Shown: one piece after another, positions 44,564 to 48,757 of the stretch
Numbering within the stretch: position 1 is the first letter of the stretch
How the letters are laid out: each line of letters begins with the position of its first letter
NCBI GenBank assembly: GCA_000165345.1
Contig: CM000436.1
Location: 800,001-864,000, forward strand
Direction: 5' to 3'
Length of the DNA stretch: 64,000 nt
Notes under the pieces: generated by a model
Database searches by the model: none
What the model saw: the letters and a program-made list of their open reading frames with translations, nothing else
Told to the model about the DNA's origin: nothing
Program-made: the position numbers and the translations under genes

Positions 44564-47317
44564 TTATTCAGATATTTTTGATTTAATAAATTTCATAAAG
44601 CGCATAGAATATTTATCTGGTGGAACCGCTGAAATGCCGTTTGATGATCCAATAATGATTGCTTTGTAAAGTCTTTCAAACTTCTTAATGGTGCTCCAGG
44701 TTGAGAAAAAGTCAATAAATCCCAGGTAATAAACTTTCTTTTGATCAGAAGAGAGAATTCCAACGAACTTTCTATTATTCTTATTTTCAATAAGAGACTT
44801 GATGTTCATGGCGTCATCCTGCACATAATGTATTCCAATCAGGAGCGAATAATCCATTATGTTATAAAGTTCAAAAAATTTACAGTCTACTTCTAGTTGC
44901 TTTAGCAAATCTATTTGATCTTGCTGATTAATGTGCAACATTTCCTTATTATTCTTCATGTCCAACTCTTTTAAAGCAATAGTCTTATCTTCCTGAAGAA
45001 TTAAAGGCGTCGACCTTCCAATCCAGCTTCCCTTTATATCGTATCTTCTATGTATTTCAACGGGAGTATGAAAAATATTCTCCATTACAATGAAAAAAAT
45101 TTTGTGTATCTTGCTTTTCCTTAATATTGAATTGCCATTACTCGAAATTTGTTCCCTAATTGTATTGAATGGTTGAAGTAGAGGCTTTTTAAATCTAAGA
45201 GCATGAAGCCCATATATTCTCGTTATTAAACTGTTCTGGTTGCTTTTAATATGGTTAAAATACTTGCTCAATATGCTTCTAAAGAACACTGCCGTCTTTT
45301 TTCCCACAGTTTTTATTAAAAATCTACCGTCTGTAGTATAGTAGAAAAATGCACCAGACTTTCCTTCGCTACATAATTCATTCATTGAAGACAAATTTCC
45401 CAATACCATATTTCCCAATAACTGTTCTGGGCCAACGCTTCTTACATATGATTCAGGAGAAATATTGCATATTTCGCGGATCTTTCTGAATACCATGGGA
45501 TTATAATCAATAAACTGTACAGGCTTCATGAATCCTCTATAATCATTTGACTTTTGAATTAAAACATTTGATTTAGTGTTTGATTCCCTTGAAGTCCTGG
45601 GAATTATAAAAAACTTTTCTTTCATTATAAAGTCATAATCTGCGACATCTCGGTTCGGTTCTGAATAAACTCTCCCAATTGCCAGCCTCATTCCAACCAT
45701 CATATTCAATACTGTATTCCAACTTTCATGGCCAATGTAAACTGCATATCCCTTCGTTATTTTCACTACAGGAACATTTATACCACTTATCGTGGGTGTT
45801 TCCTTTTCAGAATGAGAATGTTTGGACTTTATTGAAGATACATTTGCCCTGGAACCCTTCACTTTAATTTTACTTGATGTCTTTGCCATATTTTGGAATC
45901 CTCTGCTAATATTGCTTCTGCGCCTATAAGTGTGTATCAAGGAGACTCGCTTCCGATTATTAGAACAATAGCTGTTCCTAGTATAATCAAGGGTACTGCT
46001 CGACTTATGCATAAACGTTTTCTTAATCATTTCGCTTGCAGACATACGATGTTTAGTATTCGGAGCAACATTACCTTTATTAATGTACATTTTCCTTCGA
46101 TTATAAACTTTTTTTATTATTCCCAAATTGAAATTGTTATATGTTACGATTTGAGATGGTGGCACCATATTCTGCAAAGAATAGATACTTTTTTTGCAAA
46201 TTGAATCGAGCATCTCAATATTATTATTCAATACACTTTTAAGCAAGAGCATGTCATGAGTAAATATTTTTACTATGCTATTAGTATCAGTAAAATTTTG
46301 AGCTTCAAACATATTTGTGCTTTTATTGATATCAAAAAGCATACAATTTAATAAATTATTTTCATTTGGGCTACGAATCCATTTTTCTAGAGTGTTAAGC
46401 GAATCAGTTGTCTCTTGTTTAATGTTTTTAATGTCCTCTAAAATATTAAAGACCTGTAGTTTCAGTCGAGAAGTAAATTCCTTTTCAATAGACTCGTTAT
46501 ACTCAACTCTATCAATTGGTTGCCTATTAAAAATATTAATTCCCTCGAATATTAACGGCGATTTCCTATTTTCAATATCTAAGTCATAAGATTCAAGAAT
46601 ATTCGGGGTTATTATTCCAAAAAATGAGAGAAACTCTGGGGAGTCTTGAATAGCCGCTTTATAACTTTCAAAGTAGATTTTGGGTTCATTTTGTTCATCT
46701 TTCACTGTTGAATAGTCGTTGAAAAAATTTTTAATTTCTTGATCCGAGAAATTTAATATTTGCGGCCCAACAAGCATATATCTAGCACTATCAATTGCTC
46801 TAATAGATTTTAATAACTTCTCAAAGGTGATCCCATCACTCAAATTCATATAATTTTCTCCCTTGATTACCCTGTAGGAAAACCTTGCCTTTTCATCGAA
46901 ATTATCAGAAATCATTATCGCTAGTGCTCTACCAAACTCGTAAAAATCAAGCAAGTTATTGTTATCAGTGTCCATCGCGTTAAAAATCATTTGAGAAAGA
47001 AGCCCATCATCTAATAGCCCCAAAACGATTCTAAACCTCCGAATATCCATGAATCCTAGTGTGTGATGTCGAGATAAAATCAATTCAAATTTATTTTGGC
47101 ATTTAATATATATAAATATATATCATTATAGTTACGAAATACTAATATTAAAGAGTTAATAATATAACTTACCATTATCTGAGTTTGAGATAAATGTATT
47201 GTAAAAATCCCTAATTTGCTTTGTGGATAGGTTTGTCTCATTTTGGATTTTTGTAAAAATATCTTGTTTTAATTTGAAACTTGAACATTTCCTAAAGAAA
47301 ATTTTGATTTTATGCAT
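44564..47317 (-). CDS. Phosphatidylinositol-4-phosphate 5-kinase (PIP5K) fused to an N-terminal EF-hand/neuronal-calcium-sensor-like domain. Two exons: 47317..47173 and 47055..44564, with the intron at 47056..47172.
   Basis: The PIPK catalytic core reads GKSGAFFYYTTDGRFLIKTV...MDYSLLIGIH...LGFIDFFSTW. The upstream exon encodes MHKIKIFFRKCSSFKLKQDIFTKIQNETNLSTKQIRDFYNTFISNSDN and ends at AATG|GTAAGT. A 117-nt intron ends in CACTAG and joins in frame to GFMDIRRFRIV...DTDNNNLLDFYEF (EF-hand loop). The NCS-PIP5K fusion is the architecture described for apicomplexan PIP5K. Confidence 0.8.
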
Positions 47318-47562: not shown

Positions 47563-48757
47563 TTACTTTGTGTCATATCTGTTCGTAAGTGACGTTCTCT
47601 CTTCCTGAATTGTTTTGGATTTGTTAAATTGAACTGGTTTTTTACTTGCAATAATATGGTACTGGCCTTCGCCTCTTATCATAGCGTTTAGTGGTATCCT
47701 CACGGTTTGACTATTTACAAGCCACATTAGAGCTCTTCCAATGTAACTTGAAGAACTTTTGGAATTAACCTAATTTTCATTAGTTAAAAAAAACATGTTT
47801 ATGTAATGACTTACCTTGGATAAAAAAGGCTCTACTTCCGTCTTCAAAGAATAAATGACGTTGGTAGTAATATTGAATTGCTTAATAATTTGGAATCCAG
47901 TATTTGCAATTGTATCCTAATCTAGTATTGAATGAAGATTCCTTAATATTTTGCAAGCTTACCTTTATATCTGGCCAGGCAATTGTGGGCGAAATATCTG
48001 CGAAGAGCATCATTCCACCTGGTTTAAGTAAGTCAAAAACTCCCTTTACAAACTTGTCAAAATTTGGATAACAGTGAGCGGACTCAACATTCAACACAAT
48101 GTCAAAAGATTCAGGCGCAAAGTAATTTTCAAGTTCCATACTGCTTCCAACATAAAATACTTTATTTCCAGCAGGAATCAAATCATTCCTATATATTTGT
48201 CTGCATAATTCAATCCCCTGATCACTAATATCAATCCCAGCATAAGACATCGGTTCAGCAACACTGCAAACTACAACCGAGCCTCCCCCTCTTCCGCAGC
48301 CTACCTCTAAGATGGATTTACCTTTGAAGTCATCATCATAAGTAGATAGAACTGCGGTATAAAGCTGCACTGAGTTCCAAACATCATTAAAGTTTGGCGG
48401 GGATTCTTTCTTTAACTTTTCCAATTTAGACTCGATAAATTTATCTAGCTCCGAATTTTCAGGAGGGCTATGAGGAGTTTTAATTGCATAGCCATAGTTC
48501 ATAAATGAGACATCAATGTTAGAAGTGTACTGTAACTTTGTAAATAGTGAATTGCAAGCATTATAACAAAATCTCCAAAATGACGGAGCAATGTTCAATA
48601 ACGACTTAAGGTGCCAATAAGTTAGCCAAACGAAGGTTAGTATTGAATCAATTACTGTAAGTATTTTCATTTCTCCTAAAGCCTTAATATCTGAGTAAAT
48701 AATTATTAAAATTGATTCTTTACCAAAAAAAAATGAATGTAAATGAAATATCCTCAC
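47563..48757 (-). CDS. SAM-dependent methyltransferase of bacterial (actinobacterial lipid/polyketide O-methyltransferase-like) type with an N-terminal transmembrane segment. Three-exon model: 48757 (or first ATG at 48670)..47963, 47881..47815, 47732..47563.
   Basis: Motif I reads ILEVGCGRGGGSVVV and the post-II/III region reads DIVLNVESAHCYPNFDKFVKGVFDLLKPGGMMLFADI. The hydrophobic N-terminus is KILTVIDSILTFVWLTYW. The track ORF stops at 47882 just after AAG|GTAAGC. Splicing an 81-nt intron to CAATTC... gives QFNITTNVIYSLKTEVEPFLFQ. That exon ends at G|GTAAGT, and an 82-nt intron joins to ALMWLVNSQTVRIPLNAMIRGEGQYHIIASKK...*. The frame stays open across both junctions, and the spliced C-terminus resembles the C-termini of this MTase class. 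Confidence 0.5.

What the first reader, a model, noticed from the sequence alone, without database searches (positions are those of the whole stretch)
47563..48757. Bacterial-type SAM methyltransferase with a transmembrane anchor and two small introns: candidate domesticated horizontal transfer
The protein between the PIP5K and kinesin genes has the motif set of bacterial lipid/polyketide O-methyltransferases (LEVGCGRGGGS motif I, VLNVESAHCYPNFDKF, LLKPGG). These are most familiar from actinobacterial PDIM/PGL-type MTases and are not a normal eukaryotic housekeeping family. It nonetheless has a eukaryotic N-terminal hydrophobic segment. Its C-terminus is only recovered by removing two spliceosomal introns of 81 and 82 nt with GTAAGC and GTAAGT donors. 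A bacterial-looking enzyme that has acquired introns and a membrane anchor points to an old horizontal acquisition that is now a bona fide nuclear gene. It may be a lipid or small-molecule methylation activity at a parasite membrane.
Basis: partly seen in the sequence, partly recalled or inferred. Interest (0 to 1): 0.65.

Follow-up and report, generated by a model that had tools for sequence, protein, structure and literature searches.

The report
Bacterial-type methyltransferase gene of Cryptosporidium (cgd8_3290)

Summary
The window is Cryptosporidium parvum chromosome 8 and the gene is cgd8_3290. The quoted methyltransferase motifs, the PIP5K and kinesin neighbours and the two donor sites (GTAAGC at 47962, GTAAGT at 47814) are real. 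The introns are 46 and 45 nt (acceptors at 47917 and 47770), not 81/82 nt. The correct CDS is 48670..47963, 47916..47815, 47769..47563 on the minus strand. It encodes 338 aa, identical to public entries (F0X4X8, WRK34091.1). A cDNA-like contig from a near relative lacks exactly these 46 + 45 nt.

The protein is a class I SAM methyltransferase. Its best named relatives are the mycobacterial phthiotriol/PDIM methyltransferase and fatty-acid O-methyltransferase Mtf2 models, at 123 and 118 bits, far below their ortholog cut-offs. Relatives occur in hundreds of prokaryotic genomes of many phyla. Among eukaryotes I found them in Cryptosporidium, Colpodella, Rhytidocystis and a few unlabelled eukaryote-like contigs; these form one clade (87-96% NJ bootstrap). 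A separate rotifer entry lies outside that clade.

An old prokaryote-to-eukaryote transfer is therefore well supported, but the donor is unresolved and not specifically actinobacterial. The transmembrane anchor is unproven. GenBank has called this protein "bacterial type" since the first annotation, so it is a correct but known finding. The useful by-product is that public gene models conflict (262, 284 and 338 aa).

The parts
47963..48670 (-). Exon 1 of cgd8_3290 (codons 1-236): ATG at 48670, N-terminal helices, SAM-binding core up to ...AWPDIK
   Evidence: Translation. 100% identical to EAK89500.1/XP_627224.1 over this part. Orthologue N-termini all start MK[ILV]LT.
47917..47962 (-). Intron 1, 46 nt, GTAAGC...ATTAG, phase 0
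   Evidence: The cDNA-like contig L004 lacks exactly 46 nt here. The downstream 12 codons DTIANTGFQIIK match DTITNSGFHITR of C. felis. C. felis has a 46-nt intron at the same codon.
47815..47916 (-). Exon 2 (codons 237-270): DTIANTGFQIIKQFNITTNVIYSLKTEVEPFLSK
   Evidence: Including these residues raises the NF045823 score from 105.4 to 122.7 bits and extends the aligned stretch to residue 270.
47770..47814 (-). Intron 2, 45 nt, GTAAGT...AATTAG, phase 0
   Evidence: L004 lacks exactly 45 nt here. This is the only AG acceptor that keeps the conserved C-terminal frame. C. felis has an intron at the same codon.
47563..47769 (-). Exon 3 (codons 271-338 plus stop TAA 47565..47563): last helices and last beta-strand of the fold
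   Evidence: Y307 is nearly invariant in an 80-sequence alignment. Strand 305-313 is modelled with pLDDT above 90.
48596..48667 (-). Codons 2-25: hydrophobic, aromatic-rich N-terminal helix with a conserved Asp8 (possible membrane-association helix)
   Evidence: Kyte-Doolittle 1.43, Eisenberg <H> 0.55-0.61. Predicted helix 2-25, pLDDT about 85. No membrane-topology or signal-peptide predictor was available.
48281..48310 (-). Motif I, LEVGCGRGGG (residues 121-130), SAM-binding glycine loop
   Evidence: The sequence shows it directly. Residues are invariant or nearly invariant in 80 homologues.
48068..48091 (-). Family signature NVESAHCY (residues 194-201) after strand 4
   Evidence: N194, E196, S197 and Y201 are invariant; H199 and C200 are at least 90% conserved. 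This signature was one of the two peptide patterns (with motif I) that retrieved 555 prokaryotic relatives.
47756..47769 (-). 14 nt that the 284-aa public models (CPATCC_004172 type) treat as intron (59-nt intron 2), which shifts the frame
   Evidence: The 46/59 model reproduces QOY40093.1 exactly. The transcript contig L004 keeps these 14 nt.

Best explanation
The locus is cgd8_3290 of Cryptosporidium parvum, a three-exon nuclear gene (introns of 46 and 45 nt) encoding a 338-residue class I S-adenosylmethionine-dependent methyltransferase. It belongs to the large, mostly prokaryotic family that contains the mycobacterial phthiotriol/PDIM O-methyltransferase (Rv2952 type) and the fatty-acid O-methyltransferase Mtf2, but it is an orthologue of neither.

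Shown: gene structure, fold, intact SAM-binding motifs, protein expression, and a single eukaryotic clade (Cryptosporidium, Colpodella, Rhytidocystis) embedded among prokaryotic sequences.

Inferred: one ancient transfer from an unidentified prokaryote into an early apicomplexan/colpodellid ancestor. This was followed by compositional adaptation, intron gain in the Cryptosporidium line, and loss in many other apicomplexans.

Inferred with lower confidence (about 0.4): the enzyme binds SAM in the Rossmann core and O-methylates a hydroxyl or carboxyl group of a hydrophobic (lipid or polyketide-like) substrate. The hydrophobic N-terminal helix would hold it at a membrane or lipid surface.
For: Identity:
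- The unspliced 262-aa product is 100% identical to EAK89500.1/XP_627224.1.
- The 338-aa spliced product is identical to OLQ17343.1, WRK34091.1 and F0X4X8, 'Cgd8_3290 protein'.

Splicing:
- Contig L004 (94.6% nt identity) is collinear with the genome through both UTRs and lacks exactly 46 + 45 nt.
- Its protein is identical over 270 residues to C. meleagridis KAK9171022.1.
- L001 and L002, from a more distant species, are also intron-less and L001 has adapters at both ends.
- C. felis has introns at the same codons with unrelated sequence.

Family: NF045823 at 122.7 bits and NF045825 at 118.3 bits, against 42 bits or less for every other model.

Fold:
- The AF2 model has pLDDT 90 and pTM 0.89, with seven strands.
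- Foldseek gives probability 1.0 to natural-product and small-molecule class I methyltransferases.
- Motif I, D147, the NVES.HCY signature and LKPGG are conserved.

Distribution:
- 918 representatives score at E <= 1e-10, but only 5 at E <= 1e-30; four of these are eukaryotic or eukaryote-like and the fifth is a second Rhytidocystis transcript.
- 555 confirmed relatives lie in prokaryotic genomes of many phyla.
- The eukaryotic members are Colpodella angusta, Rhytidocystis pertsovi and R. sp..
- The clade has 87-96% NJ bootstrap support.

Nuclear gene:
- Synteny kinesin / methyltransferase / PIP5K is shared with C. felis.
- GC is 36.4% against 33.2 +/- 4.3% for the window's ORFs.

Expression: 2 peptides and 4 PSMs were found in lysate of C. 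parvum-infected cells (PMC13241007 S1 Table).

Lipid link:
- The named relatives act on lipids (their NCBIfam names).
- Bacterial P0145 sits in an ACP / KAS III / ketoreductase / glycosyltransferase operon.
- Some homologues are fused to fatty-acid hydroxylase domains, PF04116.
Against: - Scores are far below the equivalog cut-offs (300 and 400 bits), so the substrate cannot be transferred from Rv2952 or Mtf2.
- The five closest prokaryotic loci inspected show no conserved lipid operon.
- The sister group is unresolved (bootstrap 5-29% in the larger taxon samplings; up to 75% for P0145 in one small sampling). Neither donor nor direction is proven.
- Trees are neighbour-joining on about 260 columns only.
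- Within the clade Cryptosporidium groups with Colpodella (98-100%) rather than with Rhytidocystis. This does not match the species tree and may indicate eukaryote-to-eukaryote transfer or artefact.
- The transcript evidence comes from related species, not from this isolate.
- The N-terminal helix is only borderline hydrophobic and is not hydrophobic in Rhytidocystis.
Confidence: 0.75

Rival explanations
1. Endosymbiotic rather than direct horizontal origin. The gene came from the cyanobacterial or red-algal lineage of the ancestral myzozoan plastid and was kept by a few plastid-less or plastid-reduced descendants.
For: Cyanobacterial relatives exist (Symploca, Pleurocapsa, Dulcicalothrix, Prochloron) at 33-36% identity, as close as any other phylum. 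The eukaryotic clade is old enough to include Colpodella.
Against: No algal, chromerid or dinoflagellate homologue appeared among the best 120 hits of two searches or the best 150 representatives. Cyanobacteria never grouped with the clade in the NJ trees.
Confidence: 0.08
2. Ancient eukaryotic gene inherited vertically and lost almost everywhere; the bacterial look is only due to sampling.
For: The unrooted tree cannot formally give direction. A bdelloid rotifer entry (Adineta steineri) also belongs to the family.
Against: It would need dozens of independent losses. Labelled eukaryotic members are confined to three related lineages, plus a rotifer famous for foreign genes, against hundreds of prokaryotic genomes from many phyla. 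The rotifer sequence does not join the apicomplexan clade with support.
Confidence: 0.07
3. The real product is a truncated protein: 262 aa without splicing as in the first C. parvum annotation, or 284 aa with a 59-nt second intron as in the CPATCC_004172, C. meleagridis and C. tyzzeri annotations.
For: These models are in GenBank. The 59-nt intron also has a GT..AG boundary. Intron retention is common in small-intron genomes (general knowledge).
Against: Both truncations remove residues conserved down to bacteria (Y307 is nearly invariant) and the last strand of the Rossmann sheet, which is modelled at pLDDT above 90. Transcript-like contigs from two related species encode the full 338/339 aa. 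C. felis and C. ubiquitum annotations give 338/341 aa.
Confidence: 0.07
4. It is a ubiquinone-pathway O-methyltransferase (UbiG/COQ3 type), as the GenBank product name suggests.
For: The GenBank name is 'DHHB/UbiG like'. There is a weak UbiG model hit (42 bits) and E. coli UbiG structures score E = 2.5e-5.
Against: TIGR01983 scores 42.2 bits against a cut-off of 102.95 and is 80 bits below the PDIM/Mtf2-type models. The family signature NVES.HCY and the N- and C-terminal helices align with the PDIM/Mtf2-type family over residues 99-270.
Confidence: 0.04
5. Bacterial contamination or an assembly artefact in the window.
For: None beyond the bacterial affinity of the protein.
Against: The gene has spliceosomal introns. 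Its flanking genes are eukaryotic and in the same order in C. felis. Its base composition matches its neighbours. Orthologues exist in at least seven Cryptosporidium species.
Confidence: 0.01

Closest known systems
Phthiotriol/phenolphthiotriol dimycocerosates methyltransferase (Rv2952 type; NCBIfam NF045823)
   Same: It is the best-scoring named family (122.7 bits, E = 1.4e-35, residues 99-270 on profile positions 51-213 of 256). It shares the class I fold, the LEV.CG.GGG loop and the NVE.SHCY signature.
   Different: The score is less than half of the 300-bit equivalog cut-off. The protein has extra N-terminal residues (35 before the conserved Tyr36 against a median of 24 in prokaryotic/metagenomic homologues). 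No PDIM pathway is known in the parasite (my knowledge). It is a eukaryotic nuclear gene with introns.
Fatty-acid O-methyltransferase Mtf2 (NCBIfam NF045825)
   Same: It is the second-best family (118.3 bits), and it is the best one for the Colpodella and R. pertsovi orthologues. Some metagenomic relatives are labelled fatty-acid O-methyltransferase by JGI.
   Different: The score is far below the 400-bit cut-off, and the substrate is untested.
Other bacterial-derived genes of Cryptosporidium listed by Huang et al. 2004 (PMC545779)
   Same: The pattern is the same: prokaryotic affinity with nuclear location.
   Different: This gene (EAK89500) is not in that paper's table; the only methyltransferase listed there is an RNA methyltransferase on chromosome II. 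Here the acquisition predates the genus, because Colpodella and Rhytidocystis share it.
Solved natural-product class I methyltransferases (AtmM 6uv6, RebM 3bus, SpnF 4pne, StiD/StiE 6ecw/6ecx, TleD 5gm1)
   Same: They share the fold, with a helical lid over the Rossmann core (Foldseek E about 1e-14, TM normalised to target 0.65-0.75).
   Different: Only 12-20% identity. No solved structure of the PDIM/Mtf2-type family was found.

Membership tests
Class I (Rossmann-fold) SAM-dependent methyltransferase | Glycine-rich motif I (E/DxGxGxG) at the end of strand 1 | tested here: met
   LEVGCGRGGG, residues 121-130; invariant or nearly invariant in 80 homologues. Pfam Methyltransf_31, _11 and _25 hit at E = 4e-16 to 4e-11.
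Class I (Rossmann-fold) SAM-dependent methyltransferase | Acidic residue at the end of strand 2 that binds the ribose of SAM | tested here: met
   D147 at the end of predicted strand 142-147, at least 90% conserved. Its role is inferred from the family, not tested.
Class I (Rossmann-fold) SAM-dependent methyltransferase | Seven-stranded sheet flanked by helices | tested here: met
   The AF2 model (pLDDT 90, pTM 0.89) has seven strands. There are 1411 PDB matches at E <= 0.001 and the listed top matches are all methyltransferase-fold proteins. The last strand (305-313) needs exon 3.
Phthiotriol/PDIM methyltransferase, equivalog NF045823 | Whole-protein score at or above the curated cut-off (300 bits) | tested here: not met
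   122.7 bits. It is a relative, not an orthologue.
Fatty-acid O-methyltransferase Mtf2, equivalog NF045825 | Whole-protein score at or above the curated cut-off (400 bits) | tested here: not met
   118.3 bits.
UbiG/COQ3 ubiquinone O-methyltransferase (TIGR01983) | Score at or above the cut-off of 102.95 bits | tested here: not met
   42.2 bits.
Ordinary eukaryotic lipid methyltransferases (PEAMT/PMT, ERG6) | Best sequence similarity to these families | tested here: not met
   PMT structures score E = 2e-4 to 4e-3 (about 20-24 bits) against more than 100 bits for the prokaryotic family. No ERG6-specific Pfam domain was found.
Gene of horizontal (prokaryotic) origin in a eukaryote | Closest relatives outside a narrow eukaryotic group are prokaryotic, and the eukaryotic distribution is patchy | tested here: met
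   Labelled eukaryotic members are only Cryptosporidium, Colpodella, Rhytidocystis and (separately) Adineta. Many metagenomic hits carry no taxon label.
Gene of horizontal (prokaryotic) origin in a eukaryote | Eukaryotic sequences nest with support inside a specific donor clade | tested here: inconclusive
   The eukaryotic clade is monophyletic at 87-96%, but its sister group has 5-29% support in the larger samplings and 75% for P0145 in one small sampling (NJ only).
Gene of horizontal (prokaryotic) origin in a eukaryote | Genuine integration: eukaryotic neighbours, introns, host-like composition, expression | tested here: met
   Synteny with C. felis, two introns, composition, peptides detected.
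Membrane-anchored (signal-anchor or transmembrane) protein | A hydrophobic helix of about 20 residues that spans the bilayer | tested here: inconclusive
   Kyte-Doolittle 1.43 and Eisenberg <H> 0.55-0.61, with a conserved Asp at position 8. The value is 0.86 in another Cryptosporidium and 0.6-1.0 in Rhytidocystis. No TMHMM or SignalP was available. No localisation data were found (the spatial proteomics paper is not held).

The most novel reading that the evidence does not exclude
The enzyme is the surviving tailoring step of an ancient bacterial-style lipid pathway. It would O-methylate products of the parasite's giant type I fatty-acid/polyketide synthases and so contribute to the acid-fast, solvent-sensitive lipid layer of the oocyst wall, as the PDIM methyltransferase finishes a mycobacterial wall lipid. 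This is speculation built on family names and on Bushkin et al. [quoted passage not shown]
Probability: 0.1. Interest if true: 0.6.

Novelty: already known. Interest (0 to 1): 0.25.

Why it matters
A parasite enzyme with no host counterpart is a conceivable drug or transmission-blocking target, and it is one more example of how Cryptosporidium patched its reduced metabolism with foreign genes.

The practical value here is modest. The analysis settles which of three conflicting public gene models (262, 284 or 338 aa) is right. It shows that the acquisition is older than the genus, being shared with Colpodella and Rhytidocystis. It also shows that the 'UbiG-like' product name is misleading.

Tried and rejected
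Each gives a wrong frame, a non-AG acceptor or a premature stop.
- Donor identification. Three NJ analyses with different taxon sets gave no supported sister group. The bacterial P0145 subfamily came nearest (75% in one sampling, 29% or less in the others). A search with P0145 did not return the apicomplexan proteins among its best 120 hits.
- Gene neighbourhood of the five closest prokaryotic loci. Only unrelated housekeeping genes were found, by eye from the translations and without domain scans, so there is no functional clue.
- Literature. 'cgd8_3290' occurs in no main text of the library and 'Cryptosporidium' + 'phthiotriol' in none. Huang 2004 does not list the gene.
- Stage expression and localisation. 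Supplements of three further papers held nothing. The hyperLOPIT paper is not held.
- The AFDB fold library was not available.
- A UbiG/COQ3 reading and an ERG6/PEAMT reading were rejected on scores.
Full report
**What is in the sequence.**
- The minus strand between 47563 and 48757 holds a mechanical ORF of 291 codons (47882..48757).
- The first in-frame ATG is at 48670, and all orthologues begin there with MK[ILV]LT.
- The flanking ORFs are a PIP5K (PF01504, 250 bits) and a kinesin (PF00225, 317 bits).
- The window has 31.9% G+C.
- The unspliced 262-residue product is 100% identical to EAK89500.1/XP_627224.1 of Cryptosporidium parvum. UniProt F0X4X8, identical to the spliced product, is named 'Cgd8_3290 protein'. 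The window is therefore C. parvum chromosome 8.

**Gene structure.**
With 82/82 nt the frame hits a stop after 259 aa. With 82/81 nt the second intron ends in GA and 24 conserved residues are skipped.
It also showed that the residues VNSKSSSSYIGR follow exon 2 directly.
- The model that fits is: exon 1 48670..47963, intron 1 47962..47917 (46 nt), exon 2 47916..47815, intron 2 47814..47770 (45 nt), exon 3 47769..47563. This gives 338 residues.
- This exact sequence is already public as OLQ17343.1, PPA64414.1, PPS97964.1, WRK34091.1 and F0X4X8.
- A 1141-nt contig from a sequencing run (L004) is 94.6% identical to the window and collinear with it from 48717 to 47488. It lacks exactly 46 and 45 nt at these places.
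- The L004 protein equals the C. meleagridis entry over the 270 residues they share, so L004 is a spliced transcript of a sister species.
- Two further contigs from a more distant Cryptosporidium (77% protein identity to the first spliced model) also carry an uninterrupted 339-codon ORF. One of them ends in sequencing adapters on both sides.
- In the C. felis genome both introns sit at the same codons, are 46 nt each, and share no obvious sequence with those of C. parvum.

**Conflicting public models.** GenBank holds at least three versions.
- 262 aa (C. parvum Iowa II, C. hominis TU502): no splicing. Shorter unspliced models of 240 and 246 aa also exist in other species.
- 284 aa (CPATCC_004172, C. 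meleagridis, C. tyzzeri): intron 1 is correct, but intron 2 is taken as 59 nt, which shifts the frame.
- 338-341 aa (C. parvum, C. hominis, C. felis, C. ubiquitum).
- I reproduced the 284-aa version exactly with an acceptor at 47756.
- The long version is the one supported. Its last 68 residues are conserved down to bacteria (Y307 is nearly invariant in 80 sequences). They form the last strand and helices of a confidently predicted fold, and they are encoded by the transcript contigs.
- One C. canis entry (KAJ1607081.1, 1199 aa) fuses this gene with the PIP5K gene.

**What the protein is.**
- Pfam gives only generic class I methyltransferase domains.
- NCBIfam separates the candidates clearly: NF045823 (phthiotriol/phenolphthiotriol dimycocerosates methyltransferase) 122.7 bits, NF045825 (fatty-acid O-methyltransferase Mtf2) 118.3 bits, then UbiG 42 bits and everything else lower. 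The Colpodella and Rhytidocystis orthologues give the same ranking of families.
- Both top scores are far below the curated ortholog cut-offs (300 and 400 bits). The protein is a member of the wider family, not of either named subfamily.
- No close solved structure exists. The best sequence match in the PDB is E = 9e-6.
- The AlphaFold model is confident (pLDDT 90, pTM 0.89) and shows seven strands.
- Foldseek finds natural-product and small-molecule methyltransferases: AtmM, RebM, SpnF, StiD/E, TleD, PMT and prenyl-diphosphate methyltransferases. TM-scores normalised to the query are 0.5-0.6 and identity is 12-20%.
- Motif I, D147, the NVES.HCY signature and LKPGG are conserved, so the enzyme looks catalytically competent.

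**Origin.**
- Against 1.84 billion representatives, 918 proteins score E <= 1e-10 but only five score E <= 1e-30.
- Those five are C. felis, two proteins on unlabelled contigs, R. pertsovi and a second Rhytidocystis transcript. One of the two unlabelled contigs carries eukaryote-type neighbours; so does the contig of P0007, a close relative from the first search, with cathepsin C.
- EukProt labels identify Colpodella angusta and R. pertsovi. The GHVS/GHVQ accessions are the two Rhytidocystis transcriptomes (PMC7522995).
The best 80 span Bacteroidota, Chloroflexota, Cyanobacteria, Verrucomicrobiota, Acidobacteriota, Marinimicrobia, Actinomycetota, Myxococcota, Planctomycetota and two archaeal groups. 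All are at 27-37% identity.
- In three neighbour-joining analyses the ten eukaryotic sequences form one clade with 87-96% bootstrap support (89% with an extra Cryptosporidium sequence).
- The sister group is not resolved. A small bacterial subfamily around P0145 comes nearest, with 75% support in one sampling and 25-29% in the others.
- The simplest reading is one old transfer from an unidentified prokaryote, before the split of these lineages, with later losses.
- The internal order (Cryptosporidium with Colpodella, 98-100%) does not follow the species tree, so secondary transfer between eukaryotes cannot be excluded.
- The gene's composition (36.4% GC) is like that of its neighbours, as expected for an old resident.
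- The continuous 334-codon ORF on the colpodellid-like genomic contig suggests that the two introns arose in the Cryptosporidium line. This is an inference.

**The N-terminus.**
- C. parvum has 35 residues before the conserved Tyr36, against a median of 24 in the 333 prokaryotic/metagenomic homologues. The extra part is a predicted helix, residues 2-25.
- It is moderately hydrophobic (Kyte-Doolittle 1.43) and contains a conserved Asp8 and several Trp/Tyr residues.
- In another Cryptosporidium the value is 0.86. In Rhytidocystis the equivalent helix is charged and amphipathic.
- About 7% of the prokaryotic/metagenomic homologues also have a hydrophobic N-terminus, among them the P0145 subfamily.
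- It may be a membrane-association helix. It is not shown to span a membrane, and it need not be a eukaryotic invention.

**Function.**
- Shown: the fold, the motifs, and that the protein is made. It was detected with 2 peptides and 4 spectra in lysates of HCT-8 cells infected for 3 h, and was not enriched in the pull-down (PMC13241007 S1 Table).
- Inferred: O-methylation of a hydrophobic substrate. The support is threefold. The only named relatives act on lipids. One bacterial relative lies in an ACP / KAS III / ketoreductase / glycosyltransferase operon. Some relatives are fused to fatty-acid hydroxylase domains.
- Against this, the closest prokaryotic loci show no conserved neighbourhood.
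- A link to oocyst-wall lipids (PMC3760245) is attractive but untested. The apparent absence of the gene from Toxoplasma and Eimeria among the best hits argues against a general role.

**Novelty.**
- The gene, its bacterial character (in the GenBank product name) and the correct spliced model are all public.
- It is not in the table of transferred genes of Huang et al. 2004, and I found no paper that discusses it.
- The finding is a correct recognition of a known, annotated gene, with wrong intron details.

Noticed in passing
window 47056-47317 (minus strand): The neighbouring PIP5K gene has a short first exon (ATG at 47317, exon to 47173) and a 117-nt intron (47172..47056, GTAAGT...CTAG). These join to the long ORF 44564..47083. 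The joined N-terminus matches the C. canis PIP5K entries. The methyltransferase stop and the PIP5K start are only 245 nt apart.
   Followed up: partly
public entries for this gene (no window coordinates); alternative acceptor at window 47756: Public gene models for this one gene disagree: 240, 246, 262, 283/284 and 338-341 aa in different Cryptosporidium annotations. The 284-aa version in the telomere-to-telomere C. parvum annotation (CPATCC_004172) uses a 59-nt second intron that truncates the fold.
   Followed up: yes
protein P0128 (C. canis KAJ1607081.1): This 1199-aa entry is a fused model: residues 1-334 are the methyltransferase and the rest is the PIP5K. This also explains why the 90% cluster of the methyltransferase has a PIP5K as its representative.
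   Followed up: yes
L006 1511-5575: Bacterial homologue P0145 sits in a tight operon with an acyl carrier protein, two KAS III-type condensing enzymes, a short-chain ketoreductase, an aminotransferase and glycosyltransferases. This looks like a lipid or glycolipid pathway. Its subfamily has hydrophobic N-termini.
   Followed up: partly
proteins P0319, P0325, P0338: Prokaryotic/metagenomic homologues of 478-510 aa carry a fatty-acid hydroxylase / sterol desaturase domain (PF04116) fused in front of the methyltransferase.
   Followed up: no
protein P0147 (Adineta steineri CAF1495139.1): A bdelloid rotifer entry belongs to the same family but does not group with the apicomplexan clade. It may be a second, independent acquisition or a contaminant.
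   Followed up: no
L009 486-1787 (protein P0141): A 433-aa homologue with a serine-rich, low-complexity N-terminus, from an unlabelled sequencing run, joins the apicomplexan clade in 57-69% of bootstraps in the two smaller taxon samplings (30% in the largest). It may come from a further, unidentified eukaryote.
   Followed up: partly
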